A stretch of 64,000 nt of DNA from Sphyrna mokarran (GCA_024679065.1 JAGIQG010000015.1:38812001-38876000); one strand, 5' to 3'; counted from the stretch's first letter, positions 893-55,572 are shown. Notes: a model not told the origin generated them from the letters alone. A program made the numbers and translations.

Positions 893-1183
893 GTAGAATC
901 ATAGAATCCTACAATGCACTAGGAGGCCATTCAGCCTATCAAGTCTGCACCAACCATAATCCCACCCAGGCCATATCCCCACAACTCTATGCATTTACCC
1001 TAGCTAGTCTCCCTGACGCTAAGGGGCAATTTAGCATGGCCAATCCATCTAACCTGCACAACTTTGGACTGGGAGGAAACAGGAGCACCTGTAGCAAGTT
1101 CCACACAGACCGTGACGCAAGTTGGGAATCAAACCTGGGTCCCTGGTGCTGTGAGGCAACAATGCCAGCCACTGTGCTGCCCC
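893..1183 (-). mobile_element. HE1-like tRNA-derived V-SINE (internally deleted)
   Basis: Minus strand reads gggcagcacagtggc...cagggacccaggtttgattccc (tRNA-like head with B-box), a partial V-domain (ggtgctcctgtttcctcccagtccaaag), then a CR1-type tail ending (gattctat)n. Confidence 0.85.
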
Positions 1184-2328: not shown

Positions 2329-2576
2329 TGCGCGTTCTCCCCGTGCTTCCATGGGTTTTCTCCGGGTGCTCCGGTTTCCTCCCACATCCCAAAGATGTGC
2401 TCTTAGGCTAATTGGGAAAACAAATTCTCCCTAAATTGTCTCAAATTTGGTTTTTAATCCATAGATCTCTAAACATAGACAGGGATCACGGGTAGAGGTG
2501 GGAACATCGGGGAGGTGGCGTGGGCTCGTTGGGCTGAAGGGCCTGTTTCCTATGTTGTTTTGTTCTTTGTTCTTTG
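2329..2576 (+). mobile_element. 3' fragment of the V-domain-carrying CR1-like LINE family (copy 1)
   Basis: V-domain (gggttttctccgggtgctccggtttcctcccacatcccaaagatgtgc) plus a family-specific tail ending (ttgttct)n; near-identical to 30430..30673. Confidence 0.9.
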
Positions 2577-3990
2577 AAACTGCATGTATTATAATATGCA
2601 GATTGTGGAAAAAGTAAACTGAGCAAATACTTTGTAGGATGATCTAGACTTAGTGTTATTGTTAGTGTCAATGGAAAATAAAACAATTGGAATATAATAA
2701 ATGTAAGAGAAATAGAAAAAAATGGAGTGGCAGTATTGGTAAAACAATAGTACATGCTGTTGAGATGTTGATATTGGCAAGAAATACTTTGTGAATATGA
2801 TTGGGACTTGAGGATAAAGAGCTAGTTGTATGGATAAAGGTATATTACAAACCTCTAAATTTTGGGAAAAAGATTGAAACAATAATTTTGTCAGATTAGT
2901 GAAATGAGTAGGCACAGCAATTGTTGAGAGCAATTTGAATTATCCACTTATCAACAAGGACAGTGAGGAAGGATATGGATGTCTTAAAATATGATTACAA
3001 GACTGGAGTAGCTGCTGCATCTGGCTGATATACAAATAGATGCAAGTCGATTTAGCTAAATGTGGATGAGCAACTTGGGAGTAAAGACCACGGTATGAAA
3101 TGGTTTAAGAGACAACTTGAAAGGGGGAAAAATTCTTATGAAAAATGGAGCCCAAGATTTAATTGAAGCAGTTATTAAGAAGGTGAGCAGTGGCCAGTGG
3201 AGGAGAAATTGACACACGCAACTGCATAGGACAATTGAATGTTTCTAAAAAGTGATTTCAAAGATACTGAATAACAATGTTGCATTAGAACTGAAGGAAA
3301 CTATTGGTAGTTTTAGTATGCCTTGGATAACTAACGGCAAGAGAATTGATTTTAGAATTGAAGATGGCTATTGTGGACTAATAATCATGAAAAAACTGAA
3401 GATCTAAGGAAATGAAAGGTGTGGGAGAAAAAAAATGAAATGGAACATGCCCTTAAGGGAAAGGACTGTAAGTTTGTAGATGATAAAAAAAAATTGTTGG
3501 GCATTTAACAAATATCAAGCATCAGTCTTTACTCCAGAGAAGGATTTTGGAAAAGAGGTGAATTTTGAAAAGGGAGAACGAGCTGAGCAATATTACAATG
3601 GATAAAATGTAGATGTTGGTTAGACTGCCAGAATATAAAAAAATCAGAACCAAATGGGATGCATCCTCATGCGGAAATAAATTGTCAAGGTATTATGTTT
3701 CAAGACTCTGAATTTATGTCAGAAGACTGGAGGGTAGCCAAATTAAATTGACAACCTGAGATAACACTGATAATTTCAGGACACTTGTTTTAATGTTTGT
3801 GGTTGGGATAATTTCAAAGTTTTCCATTAATGATGAAATTACTATGTATCTGGACAAAGAGAATTGCCACTGGCACAGATTACCAAAGAGATGGTCATGC
3901 TTGACAAATCTTTTGAGTCCTTAGAGTGTAAGATCTGGTAAATGGTGGGAAATGCAGTGTATATTGTCTGGTTGAGCAAATGGCATACTT
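2577..3990 (+). mobile_element. Ancient, heavily decayed CR1 ORF2 remnant
   Basis: Degenerate traces of the endonuclease start (ctgcatgtattataat), PEDWR-A (cagaagactggagggtagcc) and SCLTNL (tcatgcttgacaaatc); many stops and indels. Confidence 0.6.
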
Positions 3991-9379: not shown

Positions 9380-11000
9380 GCTTGGTTGTCATGCCATTGA
9401 ATGTCAAAAAGGGGAAGAAATAGAATGAGTGAACTAGCCTGGAATATAAAAACAGATTGCAAGAGCTTTTACAAGTGTGTATGTAAAGGAAGACAGTCAC
9501 TACAGCAAACATTGATCCCTTAAAAGCAGAGTCAGAAGAAATTATCATGAGGAAATGACAGTGCCATTGTTTTGTAACTGTCATCACAGTATAGAAAGCA
9601 CAAGTTACATGCCAGAAATAGAGTAACCTATATAGGATGAAAAAATTAAAGTAATTAATAGAACAAAGAACAAAACAGTATGGGAAACAGGCCCTTTGGC
9701 CCAACGAGCCTGTGCCGCCACCTCAATGTTCCTATTTCTACCCATGATCCCTGTTTATGTTTATAGATCTATGCATTGAAACCAAATTTGAGACCGTTTG
9801 GCAGAACAACTGCTCCCTAATGAGCCTAAGAACATATCTTTGGGATGTGGGAGGAAACCGGAGCACCCGGAGAAAACCCACGCAAGCACGGGGAGAATGC
9901 GCAAACTCCCACAGATACAGGCCCAAATCCATGTATCTGCACAGCACAACGATAGTCACTGAGCTGTCGTGTTGCCTATCAAATGGTCCAGGTCCAGCGT
10001 ACACTAATGACGTGAAGCACTAGGATACTCTCAAAATCCAAGAGCAGCCTCTCATGACCCATCGTGTGTATGCCCCTTGTTAGACAACAAGGTGGACCGA
10101 AGTACCTGTAGGATATAACAAATATATCAATGTCATCGACAATTTACACACTTCCCAGGGAACTCCCAAGGCTCATGATCCCTATTTTAAATCAGTTTTC
10201 TATATCCCTCCATTCCCATTCTGTTCATGTGCCCATCTAAGTATCTCTTAAATAACTCCAGACTGCCTGCCTCCACCACTTTACTTGGTAGCGCGTTCCA
10301 TACCCCCACCACCCTCTGTGTGAAAAAACTCCCTCTAGCACCAAATTATACTTTACCCCCTCCCCCCCTCACCCTAAGCCCGTGACCCCTCATGCTATTT
10401 GAGTCCATCCTAGGAAAAAGCTTAACCCTGTTTACTCTATCTATACCCCTTATAATCTTGTACGCCTCTATTAGATCTCCTCTAAGTCTACGTCTTTCTA
10501 AGGAAAACAGTCCCAATTTGCCTAACCTGTCCTCGTAACTCAAATCTTCCATACCAGGCAGCATCCTGGTAAACCTTCTCTGCACTCTCTCCAGAGTCTC
10601 CACGTCCTTCCAGTATTAGCAAGAGAAAAAGTACTTGAGAAATTCAAGACATTAAAATCTGACTAATCTCCAGGATTTGATCGTCTACATCCTAGAGTTC
10701 TAAAAGAGATGATAGCAGAGATAGCGGATGAGCTGGCGACGATTTTCTAAAATACCCATGATTCTGAATGATCCCAGCACGTTGAAAGCTGACAAATGTA
10801 ACGCCACTATTCAAGAAACAAGGAACAGATATAAGGAAGATCCACAGGCCAGTTAGCCTGACATCGGGTGGTGGGACAGTGCTGGAATCTAATATTAAGG
10901 AAGTTTGAATAATACAATTAGAAAACGTTAGTACAATTAGAACAAGTCAGCTAGTTTTATGAAAAGGAAATCCTGTTTGAAAAATGTGTAAACTTTTGGA
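9380..11000 (+). mobile_element. Old CR1 ORF2 fragment split by the younger insertion at 9661..10615
   Basis: Decayed PLK, SPG-D-LHPRVLKE and ANVTPLFKK motifs read through on both sides of the insert. Confidence 0.6.
9661..10615 (-). mobile_element. 5'-truncated V-domain-carrying CR1-like LINE (copy 2)
   Basis: ORF 10346..10603 (LERVQRRFTRMLPG...RRLRGDLIEAYK) is the CR1 ORF2 C-terminus, followed by the structured 3' UTR, V-domain and (ttgttct)n tail at 9661. Confidence 0.92.
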
Positions 11001-16670: not shown

Positions 16671-17160
16671 ATGTGTACATAGGGTTGTAGTTGTGCTTGG
16701 CGCTGATGCGTGCTAAGAGTGATGACCACTGATTAAGGTATGCCAAGGTTACTTGTAGGGAGTCATAGAATCATACAGCACAAGAGGCGACATCAGGGGA
16801 TATATTCCATGTAAGTTGCACAGTGGTGTAGCAATTGGAAAATTGTCTCATAGTGCACAAGTCACTTCCTTTAAGTTTTTAAAAAATTAAAGAAATTACA
16901 CAATTAAATCAGCTGTGCACTCCAAAATAAAACTTAAGGGAATATTGCCAGAGGCTCTTATATCTCAAACTTTTTCACAAATTAGTATTGTATGTTAAAC
17001 TGATGTACTTTCTATCTCATCAATGCAAGCTTAAATTTTTTTTGGTAAGTAATAATCATAGTATGTAAGATTTAGCATAATATCTCTCTCCTATGAATAA
17101 AAATCAGAATTCTTTAGTTATACTGTGATCATTTTGATTTTTGTTTGCAGGTTGGCCATT

Positions 17161-23411: not shown

Positions 23412-25395
23412 GAAAACATGGGAGCAAGAGTAGGCCATTTGGCCCTTTGAGCCTGTTCCACCATTCAATCTGATCATGGCTGATCCTCTATCTCAACGCC
23501 ATAATCCTACATGACACTGAGTTTAGAAATCTATCTAGTTCCTTCTTAAATATATTGGCTTCCACAGGTTTACTACTGAGTAAAGGTGTTTCTCCTCCTC
23601 TAAGTTCTAAATGGCCTTCCCTTATCCTCAGACTGAGATCTCTTGTAGGACTCCCTGCCCTCAGCCAGAGAAAATGGTATCCAGTCTGTCCAAACTTGTC
23701 AGAATTTTGATGTGTTTCAATTAGATTCCCTCATTCATTCATTTATATTCCAGTTGTAGTTAACCTAATCTCTCCTCCTATAACAGCCTTGATATCCCAA
23801 GAATCAGTGTGGTGAACTTTCGATATATCTTCTATGATATACGTCCTTTTCACATCCGTAGAATAAAGAGATCAAAACCCCACACAACATTCCACGTGTG
23901 GCCTACCAAAGCAGTGTACAACTGCAGTAAGACATTTTTGCTCCTGCGCTCAAATCATTTGTCTTCCTAACTACTTGCTGTACCTGCATGCTTGCTTTCA
24001 GTGACGGATATACTAGCACACTCAGATTGCTTTTTGTATATCAACATTTCCCAATCTCACCCCTTAAGTTATAGTCTACTATTCTGCTTCTCTGTCTAAA
24101 GTGTATAACTTCACATTTATCCATATATTTGCCCACTCACTCAAATTGTCTAAATCACCTTGAAACCTCTTAACATTCTGGTCACCACTCATTCCCATCA
24201 AGTTGTGTCATTGACAAACTGGGAAATATTACTTTTGATTTCCTGATCCAAATCATTGATGTGAATAAGGGCCCAAGCACTCATCTTAGTGGACCCCCAA
24301 GTCACCTGCTTTGAAAAAGACATTTATTCCCATTCTCTGTTTTATATCCGCTAAACAGTGCTCAATCTATGCTAACATATTATCCCCAATCCTGTGTGCT
24401 TTAATTTTGCATACTAACCCCTTGTGTGGGACTTCATGAAAAGCTTTCTGAAAATCCAAATGCACCATATCCAGTGGTTCTCATGTACCTACTCCACTAG
24501 TTACAACCTGATAAAACTCCAGTAACTATCAAACATATTTGCCTTTCATAAATCCATGTTGACTCTGTCTAATCCTGTTGATATTTTAAGTGTCCTGTCA
24601 TCGTATCTTTTATGATAGACTCTAGTATTCTCCTGCGACTGACTTTAGGCTCACGGATTTATAATTACCTGTTTTCTCTCTCCCACCTTGTTTAAATAAT
24701 GGGGTAATATTTGCTAGCCTTCAATTTGCTAATAATTCCAGAATCCATAGAATTTTGGAAGATGACAACTGACGACAATTTTCATGGCTGCCTCCTTCAG
24801 AAGCCTGGGATGTAGATTATCAAGCCCTGGGGATTTATCAACTTTGGTCGCTTTAATTTCTCCAGCACTTTTTAAAATAATACTCATTTCTTTCAATTTC
24901 TTCTCTTTCAGTTTTTATATTACTTTCAAGTTTAAGTTTACTAGTACTCAATCTCTTGATCCTGCTTTGCTGAAGCAGCTCTGCTTTGGATCTAATGCTA
25001 TAATTTTTGTAAACCATAGTTAGGCTACTTTTGTTATATTTTTGCACCAGGAAGGAATGTATAGTTGTTGCAATACGTACATTAGTTCCATAAATATAAA
25101 CCATTGCCGATCCACCATCATGCCATTTAAAGAAGTTCCCCAAACTATCTTAGCCAACTGATACCTTTGTTTAGATTTAGGATTCTAGCTTCAAATCAGA
25201 CTCCTTCACTTTCCAGTCTAATGAATTTTATCATGTTATGATCACTCTTGCCCTGCACAACAAGATTATTAATTAACCCTTCTCAGTATGTAATACCAAA
25301 TCCTAGGATCACATGTTCCCTGGTTGGTTCCTCGACATAATGGTGTGAAAAAAAAAATCTTGTGCAGAATCCAGCCATCTGTCACAATATTGTTG
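23412..25395 (-). mobile_element. Old CR1 LINE ORF2 + 3' tail
   Basis: Tail ggagcaagagtaggccatttggccc at 23420; minus-strand decayed KSPGLDNLHPRLLKE, QHGFMKG and LDFQKAF motifs. Confidence 0.75.
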
Positions 25396-25989
25396 CTGGT
25401 TTGAAAGTCTTGGATGAAAGGATAAAGCCATATGTCCAAATTGCTGATGACAAAACAGTTACTTTATAAGGATTATAAATGGAAGTCAAAATCACATATT
25501 AATAGATTAAATGAATAGAATAAATGGTGCAAGATCATTTACTGTGTCCTAAAAATATACTTTTTAAATAAGTTACAAACAATATAAGTCCAGAACAGGT
25601 ACAGAAAATCAAACATGCTAATGAAATGGCTTTTATACCCAAGGGACAACTATAGAAAGCCTTAGTTAGATCACACTTGGAATACAGTGAGCGATTCTAA
25701 GTGCCACATATTAGGATATATTGGCCTGGGAGGAATGTAGTGTAGATTTAGCTGGATGCCAAAGATTAAATGAAGAGGAGAGATTATAAAGATGCGTGTT
25801 ATATTTCCTGAAATTTAAGAGGCTAGTGCGTGATTTAATTGAATGTTTCAAGACATTGAAGGGAAAGTGATTGAGTTAATGGGGAGGAAATTAAGTGGGG
25901 AATTAATCTAAATTAGAATCAGATTTTTCAGGAGAAACACCTCTAAATACAAGATGATAGAAGTTTGGAACTCTTCTGCAACATGTCTC

Positions 25990-26545: not shown

Positions 26546-27235
26546 TCAAATTGTTAATTTTAAAATCAAAGGTTATCGAATTTAAGGCCTGGGTTTAGAA
26601 AAAGACGTGTGTCAAGTTGGAGAGCAACTCCAATTGAATCGTGCAACAGGCTTGAAGAGCTAAATGGCCGTCTCCTGTTCTTACAATTAAATTGGAGCAA
26701 GAGTAGACGGCCACTGAAGGTCAGAGGCAGCTGGGGTGGGCGTTGGAGTTAAAAGCGAGGAGAGATGAAGGCTGATCATTAAGATTAGAACATCTTGAGT
26801 TGAGAGTAGGTGTGATGGGGAATGACTTTTGGGGAAATAATTGAATTTTTAAGTTAAACATTGAATTATTGTATTCCCATGAGCTGAAATCGGACAAGAT
26901 ATTTGCAAATTTACAGAGCCAGGTAGAGTGGAAGACTTGGATCCCTATTGCAGTGGTTCTCAAACCACAGTCAGTCGAGACCATGAAATAATTTGCTCAG
27001 CACAGTTGGCCTAACATGTGGGCGACTTCCCTGGGTCTCACCATCAGGAATTGAAAGTCATCTTGTTGTATGTAACTGTTTGCTTAACAGGCTGCCTCTT
27101 TTGATTGAAAACCTGTATGGAGTAGTACAGCAAATGTTAACTATGCAACCCTTTTTCATTGTTTTTCTTTACAGTATGATTAAATTGTACATTATGGTTT
27201 AGTACCGCGCTAAACTAAAATGAACAAAGAACAAA

Positions 27236-30200
27236 GTGAATATCTTAGCTGGGAGGTTAGCTGGAGTGTTTCGGCAGGATTTAAACTAATATGGAGGGGG
27301 GGAGGGGACGAGACCGATAGCTCGGTAGAGAGCGATATGGGAGATAGAGTAAGTTTGGACAAGAAGAGATGCACCGGGGAGGAGGAGGTTCCGAGTGGGC
27401 TTGGAGGTCTGGAGTGTGTTTCAATGCGAGGAGCGTAACGGGAAAAACGGATGAACTTAGTGCCTTAATGTTTGCGAGGAAATTGGATGTGGTTGCAGTG
27501 ACAGAGACGTGGTTAAAGGAAGGGGAGCAGTGGCAACTGAACATTCCTGGGTATAAGTGTTTCAGGTGTGACAGAGGAAGGTCCAGAAGAGGTGGGAGAG
27601 TGGTGTTGTTAGTTAAGGAGAGCATCACGGCAGTGCAGAAGGAGGACAATACAGAGGAGTTAGGAGTGGAGTCACTGGGTGGAGTTGAGGAATAGAAAGG
27701 GGACAATTACTATGCTAGGGTTGTATTATAGGCCACACAACAGCCCACGGGCAGTTGAAGGCATATTAAAGACATTTTGGATAGGTGCAGAAAGAACAGA
27801 GTCGTTATAGTGGGAGATTTTAATCTCCCTAGGGTGGATTGGAAAGTACCTAGAGCTGGGGGTTTGGTTGGGCAGGAATCTGTAAAATGTGTACTGGAAG
27901 GATCGTTGGAGCAGTATGTGGCAGCCTGACTAGAGAAGGGGCTATATTGGATTTAGTTCTGAGTAATGAGCCAGGGCAGGTGGTTGATGTTGTAGTAGGG
28001 GAACATGTGGCTAACAGTGACCACAATTCTGTCTACTTTAGGATTCAGATGGAAAAGGATGCTTGTTGCCCTAGGGGCAGGGTGCTGAATTGGGGGAAGG
28101 CTAACTACGGTCGAATTAGGCAGGAACTTAGGGAAACTGATTGGGAATGGTTGTTTGAGGGTAAGTCCACGCTAGGCATGTGGGACTCTTTCAAGGGAAT
28201 ACTGAAAATGTTGCAAGATAAGTACGTGCCGGGCAAGAGGAAAGATGGGAAAGGTAGGATTAGAGAGCCGTGGATTACTGGGGACATTGAGGACTTGGTT
28301 AGGAAGAAAAGAGAAGCGTATGATAGGTCGAAGCAGCTGGGAACCGAGACAGCATTGAAGGAATATAGAGAGAGTAGGAGGGAGCTCAAACAGGGAATTA
28401 GAAGGGCAAAAAGGGGGCATGAAATGATTTTGGTGGATAGGATTAAGGAAAACCCAAAGGCTTTTTACTCCTATGTTAGGAATAAAAGGGTGGTTAGAGG
28501 AAAAATCGGACCTCTTAAGGACAGAGGAGGGGAACTGTGCTTAGAGGCCGAGGGAATGGCGGAGATCCTGAATGAATACTTTGCGTCGGTATTCACGAAG
28601 GAGAGGGGCTTGTTGAGGGAAATATCCGTACCGAGGGAGGAAGTGTTAGAGCTTCTAGGTAGCATTAAAACCAATAAATCTCTAGGGCCTGATGGCATTT
28701 ATCCCAGACTGCTTAGAGAGGTGCGAGGTGAAATTGCTGGGCCTCTAACACAAATCTTTGTCTCTTCCTTGGACACAGGTGAGGTCCCAGAGGACTGGAG
28801 AACAGCTCATGTTGTACCATTGTTTAAAAAGAGTCGTAGGGATAACCCTGGAAATTATAGGCCGGTGAGTTTGACATCAGTGGTAGGGAAGTTGTTGGAG
28901 GGGATTCTTAGAGATAGGATGTATAGGCACTTAGAGCGTTGCAATCTGATTAGGAATACGCAGCATGGATTTGTTAAGGGGAGGTCGTGCCTTACAAATC
29001 TGGTAGAATTTTTTGAGGAGGTGACGAAAATGTTGGACGAAGGGCGAGTCATTGATGTCGCCTGTATGGATTTTAGTAAGGCATTTGACAAAGTCCCTCA
29101 TGGGAGATTAGTCGAGAAGGTCAAGGCAAATGGGATACAAGGACAGGTAGCTAGATGGATAAGCAACTGGCTTGGTAATAGAGTAATAGTGGAAGGGTGT
29201 TGCTCTAGCTGGAGGTCGGTCACTAGTGGTGTGCCGCAGGGCTCGGTACTGGGAGCTCTTCTATTTGTAATATATATAAATGACTTGGAAGAGGGAGTAA
29301 GTGGAGTGATCAGCAAGTTTGCAGACGATACAAAGATGGCTGGACTTGCGGATAGTGAGGAGCATTGTCAGGCGATGCAGCAGGACATAGGCTGGTAGCT
29401 TGCGCAGAGAGATGGCAGATGGAATTCAATCCTGATAAATGTGAGGTGATGCATTTCGGGAGAAAGAATGTAGGGGGGAGATGTATGATAAAGGGTAGAC
29501 CTATTAAGAGTATAGAAATGCAGAGGGATCTGGGGGTGCAGGTGAACAAGTCTCTGAAGATGGCAGAGCAAGTGGAGAAGGTTGTGAAGAAAGCATATAG
29601 TATGTTAGCCTTTATAGGAAGGGGTATAGAGTACAAGAGCTGGCTTTTAATGTTGCAGTTGTATAAAACGCTGGTTAGACCTCATTTGGAATACTGTGTC
29701 CAGTTCTGGTCGCCTTACTACCGGGAGGACGTGGAGACTCTGGAGAGAGTGCAGAGGAGGTTTACCAGGATGCTGCCTGGTATGGAAGGTCTGAGTTACG
29801 AGAAGAGATTAGGCAAATTGGGACTGTTTTCCTTAGAAAGACGTAGACTTAGAGGAGATCTGATAGAGGTGTACAAGATTTTGAAGTGGATAGATAGAGT
29901 AAACAGGGCTAAGCTTTTTCCTAGGATGGACTCGAATAGCACAAGGGGTCACGGGCTTAGGGTGAGGGGGGGGGGTAAGGTATAATTTGGATGCTAGAGG
30001 GAGTTTTTTCATAGAGGGTGGTGGGGGTATGGAATGCACTGCCAAGTGAAGTGGTGGAGGCAGGTACTCTGTAGTTATTTAAGAAATACTTAGATGGGCA
30101 CATGAACAGAATGGGAATGGAGGGGTATAGAAAACTGATTTAAAATAGGGATCATGAGCCTTGGGAGTCCCTGGGAAGTGTGTAAATAGATGATGATATT

Positions 30201-30673
30201 GATGTACTTGCTTTTATCCCACAGGTGCTTTGGTCCACCTTGTTGTCTAACAAGGGGCATACACGCGATGGGTCGTGAGGGCTGCTCTTGGACCTTTTTT
30301 GAGAGTATCCTCGTGCTTCACGTCGTTAATGTATGCTTGACCTGGACCATCTGATGGGCAACACGACAGCGCAGTGACTAACGCTGTGCTGTGCAGATAC
30401 ATGGATTTGGGCCTGTGTCTGTGGGAGTTTGCGCATTCTCCCTGTGCTTGCGTGGGTTTTCTCCAGGAGCTCCGGTTTCCTCCCACATCCCAAAGATGTG
30501 CTCTTAGGCTGATTGGCAAAACAAATTCTCCCTAAATTGTCTCAAATTTGGTTTTTAATCCATAGATCTATAAACATGGACAGGGATCGTGTATAGAAGT
30601 GGGAACATTGAGGTGGCGGCGCGGGCACGTTGAGCCGAAGGGCCTGTTTCCCATGCTGTTTTGTTCTTTGTTC
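27236..30673 (+). mobile_element. Young CR1-clade LINE (copy 3, longest): ORF1 C-terminus, ORF2 (EN+RT) with few frameshifts, ~530-nt structured 3' UTR with V-SINE domain
   Basis: ORF1 end NILAGRLAGVFRQDLN* (stop 27287-27289); FNARS, VTETWL, VGDFN, SDHN; 503-aa ORF 27887..29398 with QHGF..GRSCLTNL, GVPQGSVLG, KFADDTK; ORF2 ends near 30142 (EGYRKLI*); tail (ttgttct)n. Confidence 0.95.
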
Positions 30674-35631: not shown

Positions 35632-36258
35632 TGGTGGAGGCAGGTACTCTGGAGTTATTTAAGAAATACTTAGATGGGCGCATGAACAGAATGGGAATGG
35701 AGGGGTATAGAAAACTGATTTAAAATAGGGATCATGAGCCTTGGGAGTCCCTGGGAAGTGTGTAAATAGATGATTATATTGATGTACTTGTTTTTATCCT
35801 ACAGGTGCTTTGGTCCACCTTGTTGTCTAACGAGGGGCATACACGCGATGGGTCGTGAGAGGACTGCTCTTGGATTTTTTTCGAGAGTATCCTATTGCTT
35901 CACGTCGTTAGTGTACGCTTGACCTGGACCATTTGATGGGCAACATGACAGCTCAGTGACTATCGCTGTGCTGTGCAGATACATGGATTTGGGCCTGTGT
36001 CTGTGGGAGTTTGCGCATTCTCCCCGTGCTTGCGTGGTTTTCTCCGGGTGCTCCGGTTTCCTCCCACATCCCAAAGATGTGCTCTTAGGCTGATTGGCAA
36101 AACAAATTCTCCCTAAATTGTCTCAAATTTGGTTTTTAATCCATAGATCTATAAACATGGACAGGGATCGCAGGTCGAGGTGGGAACATCGGGGTGGCGG
36201 CGTGGGCTCGTTGGGCCGAAGGGCCTGTTTCCCGTGCTGTTTTGTTCTTTGTTCTTTG
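35632..36258 (+). mobile_element. V-domain-carrying CR1-like LINE 3' fragment (copy 4)
   Basis: Near-identical to 30052..30673. Confidence 0.92.
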
Positions 36259-37142
36259 ATCTACAAAATAAGCTAGACCATTGTGTATAAGGGAAGCTAC
36301 TGAAGGAATGTTGCTGAGTACTCTTGCAAAATGACAGGGAAATGGATACCACTGGGCAGTTTGAGGACTGGAAGTATAGTACAGAAAGATTTCAGTAGTA
36401 TTCTAGCAAACAAGGTTCCTGAGTATATAGCAATCCCTGCATTTTTCAGTACCATTGACTGACAGTAAAACTTTAGATGTACTTCGGAATCTGGTCCAGC
36501 CTGAAAAACCTAGTAGCAAAACATATCAGGAATTAACCAAGATGTTAGAGAGCCACTATTCACTCAAACCATTAAAAGTAGCAGAGCATCTTCAGTTTCA
36601 TATCAGTAATCAGCTTGAAGAAGAAAATATGGTGAGCCCAAAGTGCCTCTCAGAGCATTGTTATTTTGGTGGTTCTGCATGATACAATCTGGTTTGTAGA
36701 TTGAAAAATGAGGCTACACAGCAGAGATTGCTAACTGATAACTAATTTGGGTCTGAAAAGTGCTATGGAGATAGTCATTTCAATGGAACTTGCTACTCAG
36801 GAGGTTTCTCCTTTTGGAACAAGCACTGACCAGAGAAAAGCTACTCAGCAATTGGTGTGTCATTGCTCTGCAAAAATGAGCCATGCACAGGCTGACTGCT
36901 GGAACAAGAATCATGGCAAAATTGGTCAACATAGAACAAACATACTGGCAGAAATGAGCTTCCACAGAAAGGATTGTCCACAGAAGGACACATCTTAAAG
37001 AATTTTACAAAGAAAATAAAATTAATTTTGCAAATAAGATTTACAATCAGTAACAAAGCACATTAATCTGATCTAAATATACGTTCAGTTCAAGGTGAAT
37101 TGCATCTGTTTTGGGTGGTTCCAAAATTAAATGGACAGCTTA

Positions 37143-38418
37143 TGGAATTTTATCCTAATAAAAGCGATGTAATGCATTTTGGAAGAAATAATGTAGGGGG
37201 AGTTATATGATAAAGAGTAGACCTATTCAGAGCATAGAAATGCAGAGGGACCTCGGGGTGCAAATGCACAAGTCTTTGAAGGTGGCAGTACAGGTAGAGA
37301 AGGTTGCGAAGAAAGTTTATAGTATGCTAGCCTTTATAGGAAGGGGTATAGAGTACAAGAGCTGGCGTTTAATCTTGCAGTTGTATAGAATGCTGGTTAG
37401 ACCTCACTTAGAATACTGTGTCCAGTTCTGGTCACCTTACTACCGGAAGGACATGGAAACCCTGGAGAGGTTGCAGAGGAGGATGCTGCCTGGTATGGAA
37501 GGTCTGGGTTACAGGGAAAGATTGGGTAAATTGGGGCTGTTTTCTTTAGAAAGACGGAGAATGAAGAGAAATCTAATTAAGGTGTATAAGATTATGAAGG
37601 GTATAGATAAACAGTGGTAAGCTTTTTCCTAGATTGGAAACAAATATTTCAAGGGGCTACAGGCTTAGGGTGAGGGGCAGGGTGAGGTATAATTGGAGAT
37701 TTTTCATACAAAGGGTTGTGGGGGTATCAAATGCATTGTCAAGTAAGGTGGTGGAGTCGGGCATGCTAGAGTTATTTAAGGGATACTTAGGCGCATGAGC
37801 AGAATGGAGATGGAGGGATATAGGAGACTGTTTGTTTTAAATAGAGATCAAGAGCCTTGGGATGTTCCTGGGAATCAATTGATTCTTATGGACCTTCCAA
37901 CATATTTTCTGGCTCATTTGTTTTATTTTTGAGCTTCTGGGGATTCCCTTGAATGTTTGCATAAGATGTGCTTCGGTCTGCCTTGTTGCTCAACAAGGGG
38001 CATACATGCGCTGGGTCGTGAGAGGGTTGCTCTTGGATTTTTCAAGAATAGCCTAGTGTTCACATCGTTAGTGATGCTTAAACTGGACCAGTTGACGGGC
38101 AACACAACAGCTCAGTGACTATCGCTGTTTGCTGTGCAGATACATGGATTTGGGCCAGTATCTGTGGGAGTTTGTGCGTTCTCCCGTGATTGCACGAATT
38201 TTCTCCAGGTGCTCCGGTTTCCTCCCACAACCCCAAAGATGTGTTCTTAGGCTGATTGAGGGAAGACAATTTGTTAATCAATCTGGTTTTCAATGTGGAT
38301 TTCCATAAGCATAGACAAAGGTCATGGGTGGAAGAGGGAACTCACACTGTTAAAATGGCAGCACGGGCTCGTTGGGCCGAAGGGCCTGTTTCCCGTGCTG
38401 TGTTGTTCTTTGTTCTTT
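37143..38418 (+). mobile_element. V-domain-carrying CR1-like LINE, subfamily B (copy 5)
   Basis: ORF 37207..37620 is the CR1 ORF2 C-terminus; different UTR spacer but the same structured module, V-domain and (ttgttct)n tail. Splits the Gypsy protease region. Confidence 0.9.
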
Positions 38419-38913
38419 AGCTTAACAGAATGAAAGTTAACATAGGGGCTGCCATCTCCCTAATTTCTGAGATCACCTCAAAGCAAGAATTGAATTGTCT
38501 ATCAAAGCCAGCAGATGTCAATCTGAGGATCTACACTAAGAAAATCGTGCCTGAGAGGAGATATTGTAGTCAAAGTAGAATTAAGTGGGCAAATGGTAGA
38601 GTTGCAACTTCGTGTTGTCAGAGGAAGTTTTCCAGCTTGCTTTGGCTGGAGAAGATAAAGTTGAACTGTGCTGTGGTCAGTTCAGTTGATCTTTAGAACA
38701 TCTTGGAGAAATAGAGTAGGGTATTTGAGATGATCCTAAGATCCATGAAAGATGTACAGGCAGCAATTAGACTGACTTTTGTTTGATCTTAAATATCTCA
38801 ATGAAAGAATAGTATCCTACATCAAATGTCCAAAGGTAGAAACTCAATTAATGAGACCGGTAGACACATCCAAATGATGATCAATCCAATTCTGTGTGCA
38901 GATAGTATTGTTA

Positions 38914-39177
38914 TGGTAGCACAATAATTAGCACTGCTGCTTCACAGCACCAGGGACCTGGTTTCAATTCCTGGCTTGGGTCAGTGTGGAGTTTGTACAT
39001 TCTCCCCACATCTGTGTGGGTTTCTTCCAGGTGCTCTGGTTTCCTCCAAGATTCTGAAAGACATGCTAAGGAAGTGCATTGACACAAATAGATCCAGAAT
39101 CCGGTGACTAGGGAATTTCACAGTAACTTCTTTGCAGTGTTAATGTAAGCCTTATTTATGACTAATAAATAAACTTT
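38914..39177 (+). mobile_element. tRNA-derived V-SINE with (aata)n tail
   Basis: Head ...ttagcactgctgcttcacagcaccagggacctggtttcaattcc, V-domain gtgtggagtttgtacattctcccc, end aataaataaacttt. Confidence 0.85.
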
Positions 39178-41010: not shown

Positions 41011-41726
41011 TTAGGTTTAAGGTGAGGGGGGAGGTAAGGTATAATTTGGATGCTAGCGGGAGTATTTTCACACAGAGGGTGGTGGGGGTATGGAATGTGC
41101 TACCAAGTGGTGGAGGCAGGTACTCTGGAGATATTTAAGAAATACTTAGATGGGCACATGAACAGAATGGGAATGGAGGGGTATAGAAAACTGATTTAAA
41201 ATAGGGATCATGAGCCTTGGGAGTCCCTGGAAGTGTGTAAATAGATGATGATATTGATGTACTTGTTTTTATCCTACAGGTGCTTTGGTCCACCTTGTTG
41301 TCTAACGAGGGTCATACACGCGATGGGTCGTGAGAGCGCTGCTCTTGGATCTTTTTCGAGAGTATCCTAGTGCTTCACGTCATTAGTGTATGCTTGACCT
41401 GGACCATCTGATGGGCAACACGACAGCTCAGTGACTATCGCTGTGCTGTGCAGATACATGGATTTTGGGCCTGTGTCTGTGGGAGTTTGCACATTCTCCC
41501 CGTGCTTGCGTGGGTTTTCTCCGGGCGCTCCGGTTTCCTCCCACATCCCAAAGATGTGCTCTTAGGCTAATTGGCAAAACAAATTCTCCCTGAATTGTCT
41601 CAAATTTGGTTTTTAATCCATAGATCTATAAACATGGACAGGGATCATGTGTAGAAGTGGGAACATCAAGGTGGCAGTGCGGGCTTGTTGGGCCTGTTTC
41701 CCGTGCTGTTTTGTTCTTTGTTCTTT
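41011..41726 (+). mobile_element. V-domain-carrying CR1-like LINE 3' fragment (copy 6)
   Basis: Near-identical to 29955..30673; splits the Gypsy integrase just after the NDNGSQ motif. Confidence 0.92.
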
Positions 41727-42581
41727 AATTCACAGCTCACGAATGTGAAGATTATCTGAAGATGAGTGACATCCATCATAAACCAACACTTTACTACCTA
41801 TCAACAAATGGATTAGGTGAAAGTTCTGTCTGGTCCTTGCAACATTCACTGAAAGCCTATGAGGACCAAGATTCATTAAATTGCCATCTAAAGTTTCTTG
41901 ACAATGTATCACAACACCACACATTCAACCACTTGACTTCCCCAACTTTGCTCTTACTGAAGAGGAAGCTGAGAACTACCTCTGATCTACTCTTCTCATG
42001 TAGGAGACAGCAGAGATAGTAGAACACAATCAGAAGTCACAAATTTTAAGATTTTTCTAAAAAGATGCTTGCTTCGACAAGGAGATCCGGTTTTGGCTTG
42101 CCGCTATACCACTAGGAAGAAGTGAGTTTGTGCAACTGTGTTGGCTCAGATCTCCTATATAGTACAAACTGAAAATGAACTAAGGTGGAAATGACATTCA
42201 GACCAATTATTGGCTACACATGCCAATGTACCAGTACTATCTGTGCCAGAACTACTTCTGGATGAACTGCTGTCCATACCATTGGATGCAGTAATTTGGA
42301 TCAATCAGCAGAAACTTAGATTGCTGAAGAATCCCTTGCTGCTACCAATCTTCCGTCTTCAAGATAAATTGTTACACTTTCCAGAATACAGATGCCCCTC
42401 TGACGAACCAGAGTATTTCAAAGGTTAAGAACAAAGTCCCTTAAGTGTGCAGGCAGTGTGAAATAAATGCCTGTCTCATCATCTTTCCTATTAATTGTAC
42501 TATTACTATGTAATAATGTATTGCCTGTTATATATACATATAGATTATTTGTTGCTATGGGACCTTAGAAGGTGGAGGGAT

Positions 42582-42779: not shown

Positions 42780-43587
42780 TGTCAGTCATCATCAGCTGGT
42801 GCAGTCCCTTTGGCAACACCTCTAATAATAACACTCTTGTTGTGTAGTATAAATTGTTTTTTTCCCCTTATGCTAGCGTTTATAAAAATTTTTCAGCAAT
42901 ACTGTATAAATATTGTGCAAAAATTAAGACATACATTTGTGAACAATATAATCAAGGCCAGAGGTGAAATTTATCAAAGGGCAAATATCAAATTGGATTT
43001 GGCAGTTAATAGAAAGTTAAGCCAGAAGTTCAAAAGGTGGAGGGATCAGGCTTTTGAGCTGATCACATGATCATCTCACCCATAAATAAATATGAGGACA
43101 CCAAGGATGAGTATGTATCACAAGCCAGGCATCAGCCAATTTGAGAGAAGTAGAAGGCTGCATTCTTTAAAGCATGAAAGTCACACATAATGGAAATAAA
43201 TATGTCCTAACATTCACTTCCTAAGTGTTATTTGCTTAGCCATATACTCCCATCACATTTTATTGACTGACTCCAAAGTAAAACTACAGCAAATCAGAAC
43301 TGAAATCACTTGCACAAATAAAAAATATTAAAAAATCATTAAGGAAGCCTAAACAAACAAGGCACAATAAAAATAACCAATCCTAAAATTCAGGATCTGG
43401 GATAAATTCAAAAATCTGTAGAAATTTAGAGAAATGTCTTCTTCAGGAAATGATGGAAAGATTTTGTATTGATTCATTCAAATGCAAATTGGATTTCATT
43501 CAGAAAATAACAATTTGGGATCCAGCATGTGTTAAAAAGTATATTTTGCAGGCAAAAGCTCTCCTCCATTTAGCTTTTCATTGCATC

Positions 43588-43874
43588 AAAGAACAAAGAA
43601 CAACACAGCACGGGAAACAGGCCCTTTGGCCCAACGAGCCCGCGCCGCCATCCTAACGTCTTAACATATAGACATATATGTTAAGACATATAGAGACCAA
43701 TATAGGGACAATTTGTTACCCAATCTGCCTAAGAGCACATTTTTGGGATGTGGGGGGAAACCGGAGCACCCGGAGAAAACCCACGCAACCACGGGGAGAA
43801 CGCACAAACTCCCGCAGACACAGGCCCAAATCCATGTGTCTGCACAGCAACAGCGATAGTCTCTGAGCTGTCAT
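43588..43874 (-). mobile_element. V-domain-carrying LINE family 3' fragment (copy 7, subfamily C-like)
   Basis: Tail aaagaacaaagaacaac, V-domain and the two head-derived hairpins. Confidence 0.88.
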
Positions 43875-44025: not shown

Positions 44026-45277
44026 TAAAGTTTATTTATTTGTAGACTTGCATTAACACTGCAATGAAGTATTATGAAAATTCCATAGTCGCCACACTCC
44101 AGCATCTGTTTGGGTACAAAGAACAACACAGCACAGGAAACAGGCACTTTGGCCCAACAAGCCTGTGTCGTCATTTTAACATTGTGAGTGCCCTTTTCTA
44201 CCTATGACCCTTGTCTACGCCTACTAGACTCCACAATAAAGAAACTATAACCAGATTGAAGGACGCCTAATTTAGGGACAATTTGTTAACATCAATCAGC
44301 CTAAGAGCATGTATTTAGGGTATGGAAGGAGGGCAGAGCATCTGGAGAAAATCCACACAAGTATGGGGAGAATGTGCAAACTCCCACAGACACTGGCCCA
44401 AATCCATGTATCTGCACAGCAAACAGTGATAGTCACTGAGCTGTCATGTTGCCCGTCAGCTGGTCAGTTTAAGCGTACACTAATGATGTGAAGCACTAGG
44501 CAACTCTCAAAGCAACATCCAAGAGCAGCCTTCGCATGACCCACTGCGCATATGCCCCTTGTTGAACAACAAGGCGGACCGAATCACCTGTGATTAAAAA
44601 AAAGATATCAATCAACACGCACAACTTAAACAGACATTTGCAGAATCCCCAGAACTCAAACGTAAGACAAATGAGCCATAAAATATGTTGGACGGTCCAT
44701 AGGAATCAACTGATTCCCAGGAATGTCCTAAGGCTCTTATTTAAAACAATCTTTTGTATCCATCCATCTCTAGTCTGCTCATGTACCTATCTAAGTAAGC
44801 CTTAAATAATTCTAGTGTGCTTGCCTCCACTACCCTATTTGGCAGTGCATTCCAGGCACCCACAACCCCCTGTGTGAAAAACCTCCCTCTAACATCCGAA
44901 TTATACCTTGCCCCTCTCACCCTAAGCCCATGGCCCCTTGTAATTTTTGTATCCAAACTGGGAAAAAGCTTATCACTGTTTGCTCTATTTATACCCTTCA
45001 TAATATTATGCATCTCTATTAGATCTCCCCTCACCCTCTGCCTTTCTAAGCACCAATTTGTCCAATCTCTCCTCATAGCTCAATGTACATGAGGGAAAAT
45101 TTAACATGGCCAATGCACCTAACCAGCATGTCTTTGGGACTGAGGAGGAAGACGGGACATCCGGAGGAAACCCACAGACATGGGGAGGATGTGCAGTCTC
45201 TTCACAATGACCCAAGTTTACTTTGGAACCTGAATCCTTGGCATTGTGAAGCAGCAGTGCTAACCACTGCGCCACCG
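44026..45277 (-). mobile_element. V-SINE split by LINE copy 8 (tail 44026..44117, head/body 45085..45277)
   Basis: Head acggtggcgcagtggttagcactgctgcttcaca on the minus strand at 45277; tail matches the 38914..39177 family; gtaca occurs at both junctions. Confidence 0.8.
44118..45084 (-). mobile_element. V-domain-carrying CR1-like LINE, subfamily B (copy 8)
   Basis: ORF 44741..45076 is the ORF2 C-terminus (RGDLIE...RFFTQ..WNALP), then the structured UTR, V-domain and tail. Confidence 0.9.
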
Positions 45278-46759: not shown

Positions 46760-49295
46760 ATACAACAATGGGAACCCTTTAAAGAGCATATAGATTGGGT
46801 TCATCTAGGCACACTTCCACAAGGAAAGCAGAAGGGCACTTCAAAGGTACAGTTTCCTGGATGACAGAAAATAGAAAGATTAAAATTAAACAGATGAAGA
46901 AGCTTTTGATGTCAGGTAAAGACATAAGTAAGTAAAGAATACTCGTAAAAAAGTGAAATGAAAAAGGGAGTAAGGACAAAAATAGTTATAAAAAAACAAA
47001 TTAGTAAGTAATATAACAGGGTATGTAAAACTGGTTTATAAACATTGGTAAATATAATCCAAGGGTGGGGTCAACTAGGGTTCAAATATGAGATTATCTT
47101 GTGGAAATCAGAGAGCATGCCCATGCAACAAATGATCACTTTTCATGTCTTCATTAAAGAAATGAATGTTGTCAATATGAGAAATTTTAAAAATATGCAC
47201 AAAAATACATACTTAAGCTAGCATTACTCTAATTGAAGAAACACCTGGTCACAATTAGATAGATCTTGGGTTCCCTAGAAAACCAAGGATGGAAAATTGC
47301 CAAGACTTTGGCCACAATTTTTGAATCCTCAAATCTGGAAGCAATGATAGTGGACATGAAGCAAATATTATACTGCTGTTCAAAGAAAACCAAATTATTA
47401 CAGGTCAACAAGCTTAGAGATGGATATAAATTTGGAGATACTCTGAACATTAATCTGGGACACAATTAATTGGCACTTGGAAATATATGGGTGAATAAAT
47501 GAAAGTCAGCAGAAATATGTTGCTGACGAATCTTATTTGCAAATTTGAGTTAGTCGAGGTGACAGAGGGTGATCAGCATGGTACAGCTGATGTATATATG
47601 GACTTCGAAAAGACATTCGATACAGTGCCCTATAAGATTGTCAAAACTAAAGCCCATGGAATTTATTAGATAAAAAAATTAACTGAGGAAGAAGTTTCAG
47701 TATGGTTAATGTTTGCTCTCAAATTAGAGGAAAGAATAAAATGTATTTATACAAACTTTGGCCAGAGTTCAAACTACAGATTCTGTAGTTGGAATAGTTG
47801 GAACTACAGAATCTTGGGTTGAGAGGATAGAATTTCAAAGTTTACAAACACAAAATGCAAATGCGGTGAAAATGAGAAGCATACTAACACAAATGCTAAA
47901 TGATTAACTTTGCTAGGAAGAAGGAGGAGAGGCAATACCAACAAGATATCACAATTTTAAAGGACTGCAGGAACAGAGTCTGTGGTGTATGTACACAGGT
48001 CTTTTTGAAGAGAGCATCACAAGCTCCCTTCAGTTGTTAGGAAGCAGATATGATCCTTGGCTTTATATAAATAGAAGAATTTATTACAAAAGCAAGGACG
48101 TTCTGTTTAAATTTTAAGACATGCTTAGCTCCCAACTTGGATATTAAACCATGTTTGAACCCTGCACTTTAAAAAGTATAACAATGGCACAAAGGAGGTG
48201 CAGAGATTTAATAGCATGGAACTAGGGATGAAAGACTTATGTGGAGAAACCATAGAAATTGGGACTGTTCTCTTTTAAGGAAATAGGGTAAAGTGAATTT
48301 ACTTTAATGGTCAAAATCTTGAAAGGTTTGATACGTTAAATAAGGAGAATCTTTCACATAGCAGCTGGTTGCCTTTTTCCCCCCCTTATAATCTGCACTC
48401 AATAAATTGAATTGCTTTGAAAGACGTCGGCTTAGAGGGGATCTAATAGAGGTGTATAAGATTATAAGGGGTATAGATAGAGTAAATGGTGGTAAACTTT
48501 TTCCACCTTCAGAAATGGATAGGACGAGGGGTCATGGCCTTAGGGTGAGGGGGGCTATGTATAAGACGAATATTAGAGGGCAGTTTTTCACACAAAGGGT
48601 AGTGGGGGTGTGGAATGCACTGCCGAGTAAGGTGGTGGGAGCAGGCACGCTAGGGCTGTTTAAGGGTCTCTTGGACAGCCACATGAGCGTATGCAGATAG
48701 AGGGATATAGTAGGACTGTTTAACTATGGCTTTTTTTCCACAGGTAATTCGGTCCATACTTGACCAACAAGGAGCATGCATTCGGCAGGTGGTGCGAGGA
48801 CAGCTCTTGGATGTTGATTCATGGGTTGCCTGGTGCTTCATGTCATAAATGAGTGCTTTATCTGGACCATCTGAAGGGCACCATGACAGCTCAGTGACTA
48901 TCGCTGTAGCTGTGCAGACACTTGGAATTGGGCCGGTGTCTGCGGGAGTTTGTGCATTCTCCCCGTGGTTGCGTGGGTTTTCTCCGGGCGCTCCGGTTTC
49001 CTCCCACATCCCAAAATTCGCTCTTAGGCTGATTGGGAAACAAATTGTCCCTACATTGAGACTCTTCCATATTAGGAATAACCTAAAATTAGAATAGGAT
49101 AATGGAATTGTTACTATATAGTTATGACGGCGGCGTGGGCTCGTTGGGCCGAAGGGCCTGTTTCCCGTGCTGTGTTGCTCTAAAAAAAAGTGTTCAAATA
49201 TTTGGAAAGGAAAAAATTGATGGGATATGGAAGAAGAGGAGATAATGAAAATTAATTAGCCCAGGTCAAGTGGGCAAATGCCCTTGTGTTTGATT
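46760..49295 (+). mobile_element. Ancient CR1 ORF2 remnant interrupted by copy 9
   Basis: Decayed YMDFEKTFDTVP and related motifs at 47100..48360; tail remnant at 49190..49295. Confidence 0.5.
48418..49181 (+). mobile_element. V-domain-carrying CR1-like LINE, divergent subfamily C (copy 9)
   Basis: ORF 48407..48700 is the ORF2 C-terminus; short spacer, divergent but structurally conserved module, V-domain, gggccgaagggcctgtttcccgtgctgtg tail. Confidence 0.9.
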
Positions 49296-54573: not shown

Positions 54574-54866
54574 TATCAAACAGATATGCCTAAAATTCCT
54601 ACGGTGTCTAAGGAGGCCATTCGACAGAACATCTTATCCAGGTTCTATCCCCATAACCCCACATTTACTCTGCTGTTTCCCCTAAACTACACATCTTTGG
54701 ACATGAAGGGGCAATTTAATATGGCCAATCCACTGGACAAAACCAGAACACCCAGAGGAAACCCACACAGGCATGGGAACATGCAAACTCCATGAAGTCA
54801 CCCAAGGCTGGAATCAAACCCGGATTCCTGGCAACGTGAAGCTGTAGGGCCAACCACTGTGTAACC
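54574..54866 (-). mobile_element. HE1-like V-SINE
   Basis: Minus-strand head cacagtggttggccct...ccgggtttgattcc, V-domain ggagtttgcatgttccc, tail with ggcctcctt. Confidence 0.75.
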
Positions 54867-55208: not shown

Positions 55209-55481
55209 CTGCGTGATAAGAAAACCGTACAAATTATTAACGATGTTAGAAACTAAATTAGTGTGAACAAAGAATTTTGTCAATTTTGTTACGATAAATT
55301 GTAAACATGGTTTTTAAAAAACCTGAACTATACATTGCTGCATTTTTCAGCTTCTAGTAACTTAAAACTGTGCCAAGATATTTACGAGTAATAAAATTAG
55401 TAGGTACAAAGCCAATCACGCAGTTTAATAAAAAAAACTGAAATTCAAAACTTCAATCTAATTGGCATCCAACTGTGGTAC

Positions 55482-55572
55482 CTGGGAAAAGCAGAGATGC
55501 AGGATGTTAGTGTTTAGCTTATTCACTGCTCGAATGAACTTCTTTCTGCTCATATTCTCTTCACAAAACTCA
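55482..55572 (-). CDS. ATG14: ATG14 coding exon (91 nt)
   Basis: ttctgcag|(S)[30 protein letters not shown]|gtacca; phases consistent with both neighbours. Confidence 0.95.

What the first reader, a model, noticed from the sequence alone, without database searches (positions are those of the whole stretch)
30143..30673. A CR1-clade LINE lineage that carries a captured V-SINE as a fixed part of its 3' UTR
Seen: in seven copies (2, 3, 4, 5, 6, 8, 9) the ORF2 end is joined, in the same orientation and order, to spacer - structured module - degenerate tRNA-like SINE head - V-domain - variable linker - CR1 stem-loop tail. Copies 1 and 7 are shorter 5' truncations. The head (gggcaacacgacagctcagtgactatcgctg) aligns with the free SINE heads in this window (acggtggcgcagtggttagcactg at 45277 -, gggcagcacagtggc at 1183 -). 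Spacer and linker differ strongly among three subfamilies, while module and V-domain persist. The other young CR1s here (11670, 39840, 58197) have short UTRs without it. Known: the V-domain is the conserved core of vertebrate V-SINEs, function unresolved, and SINEs normally borrow tails from LINEs. Inference: flow in the reverse direction, with the autonomous element keeping the SINE core under selection. This would be a natural test system for V-domain function.
Basis: partly seen in the sequence, partly recalled or inferred. Interest (0 to 1): 0.85.

Follow-up and report, generated by a model that had tools for sequence, protein, structure and literature searches.

The report
Shark LINE carrying a captured SINE
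A self-copying shark retrotransposon has absorbed the core of one of the short parasitic elements that normally exploit such retrotransposons, has kept parts of it almost unchanged, and so offers a way to test what that long-mysterious core does.

Summary
Nine copies of one CR1-type LINE lineage fill about 14.6% of this shark window. Seven join the ORF2 end to spacer, structured module, SINE head remnant, V-domain, linker and CR1 tail, with the same spacing and one shared B-box deletion. Their ORF2 ends form one clade (100%) against three short-UTR CR1s, so this was a single capture. The V-domain matches the published consensus at 66-67 of 80 bases. The Pol III promoter is broken, so the SINE is no longer a SINE.

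Two corrections. The most constrained part is the head remnant (relative rate 0.33, against 1.55 for ORF2 third positions), not the V-domain (0.70). It is predicted to fold with the V-domain's 5' third into a four-way junction. The V-domain's central hairpin is intact in seven copies but damaged in copies 5 and 8, so it is not strictly fixed. A splice-acceptor-like motif precedes the module.

Most likely this is an RNA-level cis element of the LINE transcript; function is inferred, not shown. A 2016 paper says such domains are unknown in LINEs, and ten searches found no description, but Repbase and Dfam could not be checked.

The parts
27237..30673 (+). Copy 3, the longest copy: 5'-truncated CR1-type LINE with the probable end of ORF1, all of ORF2 and the composite 3' UTR
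   Evidence: tblastn to P0121 covers aa 18-965 at 27348-30155; ORF1 end is an inference from a stop at 27287-27289 and a recalled resemblance
27348..30143 (+). ORF2 (endonuclease plus reverse transcriptase), broken by several frameshifts and stops; stop codon 30141-30143
   Evidence: RVT_1 E 1.4e-26
30144..30218 (+). Spacer, variable in length and sequence between sublineages
30199..30225 (+). Motif resembling a 3' splice site (branch-point-like word, pyrimidine tract, CAG|G with AG at 30223-30224)
   Evidence: passes a crude filter in 5 of 7 copies; 39 hits in 128 kb of both strands, including the FBXO34 acceptor; consensus pattern recalled
30219..30355 (+). Structured module of unknown origin, predicted three-way junction
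   Evidence: alignment fold -32.4 against -20.2 +/- 3.3 kcal/mol, 0 of 300 column shuffles; 3 of 38 pairs with two-sided change, 19 of 500 shuffles; no Rfam family
30356..30413 (+). Remnant of a tRNA-derived V-SINE head: A box with 2 mismatches, B box deleted; the slowest-changing segment
   Evidence: 23 of 31 identical (copy 6, by hand) to a published toad V-SINE head
30358..30451 (+). Predicted four-way junction made of the head remnant and the 5' third of the V-domain
   Evidence: alignment fold -40.5 against -23.4 +/- 3.4, 0 of 500 shuffles; covariation not significant
30414..30535 (+). V-domain with flank; 80-nt core at 30423-30502
   Evidence: 66 of 80 (c3) and 67 of 80 (c2) identical without gaps to the published V consensus, counted by hand
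30452..30486 (+). Central V hairpin with internal loop, probably the published Vhc subdomain; damaged in copies 5 and 8
   Evidence: -9.6 to -14.2 kcal/mol in seven copies, -1.9 in c5, -6.4 in c8; PMC4758252 gives 14.44 for Vhc; identity with Vhc is inferred
30536..30614 (+). Linker, fastest-changing segment
   Evidence: relative rate 1.93; no significant match to free SINE bodies
30615..30673 (+). CR1-type 3' tail: stem-loop followed by a short repeat
2329..2577 (+). Copy 1, truncated inside the V-domain
9653..10618 (-). Copy 2
35632..36260 (+). Copy 4
37142..38419 (+). Copy 5 (central V hairpin damaged; acceptor-like motif absent)
41013..41732 (+). Copy 6
43582..43874 (-). Copy 7, begins about 7 nt inside the head
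44115..45083 (-). Copy 8 (V-domain 3' part eroded), inserted into a free V-SINE
48412..49181 (+). Copy 9, most divergent ORF2 and module, shortest spacer

Best explanation
Once, in an ancestor of this shark CR1 lineage, a V-SINE came to lie in sense orientation in the 3' UTR of an active LINE, between the ORF2 stop and the LINE's own tail, by insertion or by a template switch. It lost its Pol III promoter and was copied from then on as part of the LINE RNA (shown within this window). The lineage kept diversifying with ORF2 under purifying selection (shown for the last 125 or so codons). The head remnant, the tail and, in two of three branches, the V-domain changed far more slowly than synonymous sites, spacer and linker (shown). 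The inferred reason is that the captured sequence was remodelled into a folded cis element of the LINE transcript. That element is a four-way junction next to a three-way-junction module and the V hairpin, and it helps the RNA survive, or be packaged with ORF2 protein, until reverse transcription. The central V hairpin is helpful but dispensable in one branch.
For: Single origin: shared junction and spacing; B box lost in 8 of 8 heads while 3 of 4 free SINEs keep one at 1-2 mismatches; ORF2 clade at 100%. Selection on ORF2 after capture: for example c2-c9 differ at 13/86, 15/87 and 36/88 first, second and third positions. Constraint: relative rates head 0.33, tail 0.61, ORF2 positions 1+2 0.64, V core 0.70 (0.50 without c8), module 1.02, ORF2 position 3 1.55, linker 1.93. 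Variable sites: head 8/58, V core 26/78, against 48/75 at third positions (P 3e-9 and 1e-4). RNA level: the same four-way fold is the minimum-energy fold in 6 of 8 copies (z -2.0 to -3.9); c8 keeps the arms with a shifted closing stem, and c7 is truncated. Against the free head at 45278, c9 has 15 differences yet pairs at 11 of 11 stem positions (null P 0.0004), three of them changed on both sides (P 0.025). 11 of 17 distinct changes in junction stems keep pairing, against 33-45% expected (P 0.008-0.08).
Against: Covariation within the family is not significant for the junction (34-125 of 500 shuffles reach it) and borderline for the module (19-26 of 500). Against the free head at 38913 the two-sided count is not significant (P 0.12). 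Most stem pairs never vary, which says nothing about structure. The V hairpin is damaged in c5 and c8 (21/101 changes against 13/191 in the junction, P 0.0008). The module folds no better than shuffles in c5 and c8 (z 0.14, -0.58). The four free SINEs are decayed single copies and need not be the donor. There are only nine copies from one window, pairwise tests are not independent, and there is no expression or functional data.
Confidence: 0.6

Rival explanations
1. The cassette is a passenger. It looks conserved because sublineages swapped this part recently (template switching or gene conversion, the V-domain acting as a recombination hotspot), not because it is selected.
For: Recombination-hotspot models for such domains are in print (PMC5804259). 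A 33-nt block next to the V-domain in c2 differs at 16 sites from its close relatives, which shows block-wise change. The head+V tree is weakly resolved.
Against: The head+V tree still recovers c7+c9 (94%) and c5+c8 (55%), as the concatenated tree does. c5 and c8 share an insertion inside the head. All copies carry states absent from the free SINEs here, so they were not homogenised with those. Conserved and variable blocks alternate over 50-130 nt.
Confidence: 0.15
2. The constraint is on DNA: the cassette is a transcription-factor or chromatin signal that helps source copies be expressed or tolerated.
For: Loops as well as stems are conserved (unpaired 0-4 of about 25, paired 0-5 of about 70 per copy). 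Regulatory roles for conserved SINE domains are proposed in PMC4824008.
Against: Changes relative to free heads preferentially keep or create base pairs. The segments under constraint match predicted helices and include the tail, whose counterpart in L2 LINEs is known to work as RNA (PMC4176376).
Confidence: 0.1
3. The selected unit is a spliced terminal exon. The acceptor in front of the module lets LINE or host 5' sequence splice onto module-head-V-tail, giving a short RNA that ORF2 protein can still copy.
For: Branch-point-like word, pyrimidine tract and CAG|G in 5 of 7 copies, spanning three branches whose spacers range from 40 to 173 nt; 39 such hits in 128 kb.
Against: c5 lacks it and c2 narrowly misses the filter. 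The CAG|G also lies in a predicted helix, which could explain its conservation. No copy begins at the junction. The donor-like site near the ORF2 start is 1 of 14 in copy 3 and not the strongest.
Confidence: 0.1
4. The LINE is the source of the V-domain, and V-SINEs took it from such a UTR.
For: LINE UTRs have supplied SINE bodies in RTE and Vingi elements (PMC5786205).
Against: A tRNA-head remnant is attached. Three sister CR1 lineages here lack the cassette. V-SINEs occur from cnidarians to vertebrates (PMC4824008).
Confidence: 0.03
5. Independent SINE insertions into LINE copies, or an assembly artefact.
For: Nested insertions do occur here: copy 8 sits inside a free V-SINE.
Against: Same junction, same deletion and the same derived bases in 7-8 copies on both strands with unrelated flanks.
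Confidence: 0.02

Closest known systems
MER6/MER6A, a mammalian Tc1/Mariner MITE carrying a headless Ac1-like V-SINE (PMC6887750)
   Same: A V-SINE captured inside another transposon, unable to transcribe itself, and spread by the carrier.
   Different: The carrier is a non-autonomous DNA element, so the domain need not act in an RNA intermediate. The paper reports near-neutral divergence of copies. Here the carrier is a LINE, the head is kept and remodelled, and constraint is seen between sublineages.
HE1 V-SINE and its partner HER1 LINE of sharks and rays (listed in PMC3747384; original papers not held)
   Same: Same host group; a tRNA-derived V-SINE and a LINE sharing a 3' tail (that HER1 is CR1-like is recalled).
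   Different: There only the tail is reported as shared and the SINE is a separate element. Here head and V-domain are inside the LINE. Whether the donor was HE1, or this LINE is HER1, could not be tested.
Ingi-3_AC and R4-1_ADi, LINEs with Ceph-SINE/RTE-like sequence in the 5' UTR; RTE-1_DAn with a tRNA-like stretch (PMC5786205)
   Same: LINE families bearing SINE-like sequence, with LINE-SINE recombination suggested for Ingi-3_AC.
   Different: In Ingi-3_AC and R4-1_ADi it lies in the 5' UTR and is RTE-derived; none is head plus conserved body in a 3' UTR, and no test of constraint was reported in the parts read.
Vhc subdomain of invertebrate V-SINEs (PMC4758252)
   Same: A hairpin of about 39 nt with an internal loop and almost the same predicted energy.
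   Different: Described only in SINEs. Here it is in a LINE and is damaged in one branch. The figure giving its sequence was not visible, so identity is inferred.
Ruminant BovB LINEs bearing SINE-derived ends (recalled; searches found no paper stating it)
   Same: A LINE lineage that incorporated a SINE.
   Different: RTE clade, no conserved SINE body domain involved; from memory only.

Membership tests
CR1-clade LINE | ORF2 with APE endonuclease and reverse transcriptase | tested here: met
   RVT_1 E 1.4e-26; copy 3 aligns over aa 18-965 of P0121, which carries endonuclease and RT domains
CR1-clade LINE | RT groups with CR1 elements | tested here: inconclusive
   Groups with the window's short-UTR elements (100/100) apart from named turtle, bird and frog RTs. 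That these references are CR1 is recalled, no other clade was in the tree, and no formal classifier was available.
CR1-clade LINE | 3' stem-loop followed by a short repeat, no poly(A) | tested here: met
   c9 ends in a short A run that may be flank
CR1-clade LINE | Frequent 5' truncation with a constant 3' end | tested here: met
   9 of 9 copies are 5'-truncated and end at the tail
CR1-clade LINE | Short or absent target-site duplications | tested here: inconclusive
   4-6 nt repeats in 6 of 9 copies, too short to tell from chance
V-SINE | V-domain of about 80 nt | tested here: met
   66-67 of 80 to the published consensus, by hand
V-SINE | tRNA-derived head 5' of the V-domain | tested here: met
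   remnant only: 23 of 31 to a published V-SINE head, 20 of 35 to the free head at 45278; no tRNA call by ARAGORN
V-SINE | Intact Pol III A and B boxes | tested here: not met
   A box has 2 mismatches in 7 of 8 and 3 in c7; best B-box match has 5 mismatches in 8 of 8 (box patterns recalled)
V-SINE | Moves as an independent short unit starting at the head | tested here: not met
   7 of 9 copies extend into ORF2; none starts at the first base of the head, though c7 starts about 7 nt inside it
HE1 SINE / HER1 LINE | Sequence identity to the published consensuses | not testable with these tools
   papers not held; SINEBase supplements not readable; no Repbase or Dfam
Known structured RNA family (Rfam) | Match above a family's gathering score | tested here: not met
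   0 in the window; only E 0.5-5 matches in two copies

The most novel reading that the evidence does not exclude
An autonomous LINE has domesticated the head and V-domain of a parasite of its own kind into a folded 3' element that raises its own retrotransposition. This would be the first LINE known to carry a SINE highly conserved domain, and would show that such domains act on the retrotransposing RNA itself rather than for the host. In the boldest form, the conserved acceptor also makes the cassette a spliceable terminal exon that yields short mobile RNAs.
Probability: 0.3. Interest if true: 0.85.

Novelty: new variant of a known kind. Interest (0 to 1): 0.62.

Why it matters
Why SINE central domains such as V stay conserved for hundreds of millions of years is unresolved (PMC4824008, PMC5804259). 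One argument used against the tail-exchange hypothesis is that no such domain has been found in a LINE (PMC5804259); this lineage is a counter-example. Because the cassette lies in cis on an element that encodes its own reverse transcriptase and no longer has a Pol III promoter, its effect can be measured directly, free of SINE transcription. Nature supplies variants: intact hairpin, damaged hairpin, and sister LINEs without the cassette. If the density here is typical, it is also a large part of a shark genome that repeat annotation would split wrongly into LINE and SINE.

Tried and rejected
The head motif had 0 hits in the prokaryotic genome collection. A protein scan there gave 7 distant CR1-like loci (47-56% identity), none with a head/V hit better than E 0.1. 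Antisense read-throughs of the UTR used as bait found nothing (0 of 29 candidates) or only the V part (5 hits, residues 3-42 of 76). All of these are uninformative about other sharks.

An ORF2-spanning intron: the donor-like site at 27349 is 1 of 14 in copy 3, so it was dropped as evidence.

A whole SINE supplying the tail: the linker matches no free SINE (best 49 of 500 shuffles) and the 3' half of the tail is LINE-like, so this is not favoured; a donor SINE bearing this LINE's tail is not excluded.

An old LINE tail left upstream of the SINE: the tail profile finds none in spacer or module.

Origin of the module: no other match in the window or in Rfam.

Orientation bias against host genes: most copies appear to lie between FBXO34 and an ATG14-like exon, so no test was possible.

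A closer tie to MER6 than to other V-domains (69-70 of 80 against 65-67, by hand) is too small to use.

One search was misaligned by one base and is replaced.

Full report
Setting. The window is from a shark: the long ORF at 17101-19359 is FBXO34, 90% identical to basking shark, 82-86% to three other sharks, 74-76% to rays and 68% to elephant shark. An ATG14-like exon lies at about 55461-55625 on the minus strand (1 of 53 pieces scanned, E 1e-4).

The observation. The 531-nt query finds eight further copies, and seven of the nine continue into ORF2. The order spacer, module, head, V-domain, linker, tail is the same in all. Inner spacing is nearly constant while the spacer runs from 40 to 173 nt. 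A covariance model built from eight copies finds those, copy 1, and three free SINEs, 12 matches in all. The nine copies total 9,315 bases, 14.6% of the window. Copy 3 covers aa 18-965 of a 966-residue intact relative, with frameshifts, so the cassette sits on a full ORF2 and not on a short fragment.

Is it a V-SINE? The supplement of PMC6887750 prints a V consensus and amphibian V-SINEs. Counted by hand, 30423-30502 matches the consensus at 66 of 80 bases without gaps, copy 2 at 67, and the head of copy 6 matches a toad head at 23 of 31. The head is not a working promoter. With recalled box patterns, the A box has 2-3 mismatches in 8 of 8 copies and the best B box has 5, whereas 3 of 4 free SINEs keep a B box at 1-2 mismatches. 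The alignment shows one shared deletion of about 12 nt there. The linker matches no free SINE, and the 3' half of the tail agrees with the three short-UTR CR1s rather than with the two free SINEs that have a CR1-like tail. The simplest reading is that head, V-domain and flank were placed in front of the LINE's own tail.

One origin, on an autonomous element. In a tree of ten ORF2 ends the seven cassette-bearing copies are separated from the three short-UTR copies at 100%. Between sublineages, third codon positions differ at 0.26-0.42 and first and second at 0.09-0.22. ORF2 therefore stayed under purifying selection while all branches carried the cassette. This rests on at most 125 C-terminal codons.

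What is conserved. Partitioned rates are: head 0.33, tail 0.61, ORF2 positions 1+2 0.64, V core 0.70, module 1.02, V flank 1.50, ORF2 position 3 1.55, linker 1.93. Without copy 8 the V core is 0.50 (spacer left out as unalignable). Among four sublineage representatives, variable sites are head 8/58, tail 10/47, V core 26/78, module 49/125, third positions 48/75 and linker 40/56. The V-domain is nearly unchanged between the two most distant groups (c2-c9 6/79, against 36/88 third positions). It has eroded in copies 5 and 8, whose 3' V part carries 21 changes in 101 sites against 13 in 191 for the junction. In copy 8, 13 of 61 non-CpG V sites differ, against 2 of 93 in head and tail. Whether this is fixed in their lineage cannot be told from two copies.

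Structure. Whole-UTR folds of two distant copies place head and 5' V in one four-way junction. It is the minimum-energy fold in 6 of 8 copies at z -2.0 to -3.9, and none of 3 free SINEs tested gives it. The alignment fold beats 500 of 500 column shuffles. Relative to the free head at 45278, copy 9 differs at 15 of 35 sites yet pairs at all 11 stem positions (null P 0.0004), three through changes on both sides (P 0.025; P 0.12 against the other free head). Within the family, 11 of 17 distinct stem changes keep pairing (P 0.008-0.08), but formal covariation is not significant. The upstream module folds as a three-way junction (0 of 300 shuffles) with 3 two-sided changes in 38 pairs (19 of 500), and folds poorly in copies 5 and 8. 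The central V hairpin has a predicted -14.2 kcal/mol in three copies, close to the Vhc hairpin of PMC4758252, and drops to -1.9 and -6.4 in copies 5 and 8. No Rfam family matches. All structures are predictions.

An extra feature. A 3' splice-site-like motif precedes the module in 5 of 7 copies across three branches. Copy 5 lacks it, its AG also lies in a predicted helix, no partner donor stands out, and no copy starts there. It is unexplained.

Mechanism. Shown: single capture, promoter loss, copying as part of a LINE, uneven constraint. Inferred: the constraint acts on the LINE RNA, as a fold that stabilises it or helps it meet ORF2 protein (0.6). Tail recognition through an RNA stem-loop is established for L2 LINEs (PMC4176376), and greater RNA stability is a published guess for SINE central domains. 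Rivals are recent module swapping (0.15), a DNA-level signal (0.1), a spliced exon (0.1), LINE origin of the domain (0.03) and independent insertions (0.02).

Literature. [quoted passage not shown] PMC5786205 (parts 1-4 of 5), a systematic LINE-SINE comparison in Repbase, reports no V-domain in a LINE and says no sequence similar to conserved SINE bodies has been found. The nearest precedent is MER6 (PMC6887750, parts 1-3 of 5, supplement part 1 of 17 and searched passages). Also seen: PMC4824008 (passages, section 13, supplement primer rows), PMC4758252 (passages, section 11 part 1 of 2), and passages of PMC3747384, PMC5499810, PMC11481361, PMC3531059, PMC2911107 and PMC4176376. Ten searches listed no paper whose title or abstract describes this architecture. 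Four of them used a UTR term that probably missed the usual spelling, and most subscription papers are absent. The two Ogiwara papers were not held. The SINEBase supplements, which bear on whether the donor was HE1, could not be read. A family this abundant probably has a consensus in Repbase or Dfam; whether its make-up is annotated is unknown.

Verdict. The feature is real and well supported inside one window. Capture of one transposon by another is a known kind of event. A SINE conserved domain retained under constraint in an autonomous LINE appears undescribed and bears on an open question. Distribution beyond this window, database status and function remain unchecked. Interest 0.62; new variant of a known kind.

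Noticed in passing
   Followed up: yes
window 895-1183 (-), 54590-54864 (-), 38913-39175 (+), 45278 (-): Free V-SINEs here have two tail types: a CR1-like stem-loop tail in two, and a different A-rich-ending tail in the other two, pointing to two partner LINEs.
   Followed up: partly
window 27220-27237: The 5' junction of copy 3 abuts an inverted copy of the family's own tail repeat.
   Followed up: no
window about 9798-9830 (-), copy 2: The 33-nt V flank differs at 16 sites from its close relatives, while neighbouring segments differ by 3-18%.
   Followed up: partly
window 43874 (-), copy 7: Its 5' end falls about 7 nt inside the head, so it looks like a free SINE; it may be a chance truncation or a head-initiated copy.
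   Followed up: no
window 17150-19359 (+) and about 55461-55625 (-): FBXO34 coding exon and an ATG14-like exon flank most of the copies.
   Followed up: partly
window 61943-62477 and 63470-63999: An inverted pair 69% identical over 570 nt, another repeat family.
   Followed up: no
protein P0121: An intact ORF2, 68% identical to copy 3, is filed under a bacterial name on a 3-kb contig, probably vertebrate DNA in an assembly; it is sister to the cassette lineage in the tree. Its UTR could not be seen.
   Followed up: partly
L001-L006: CR1-like fragments on short contigs of bacterial assemblies, probably contamination; no V cassette.
   Followed up: partly
window 10616-10950 (+), 23430-24863 (-), 25626-25864 (+): Older CR1 fragments; the one ending near 23430 appears to have a short UTR, consistent with short being ancestral.
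   Followed up: partly
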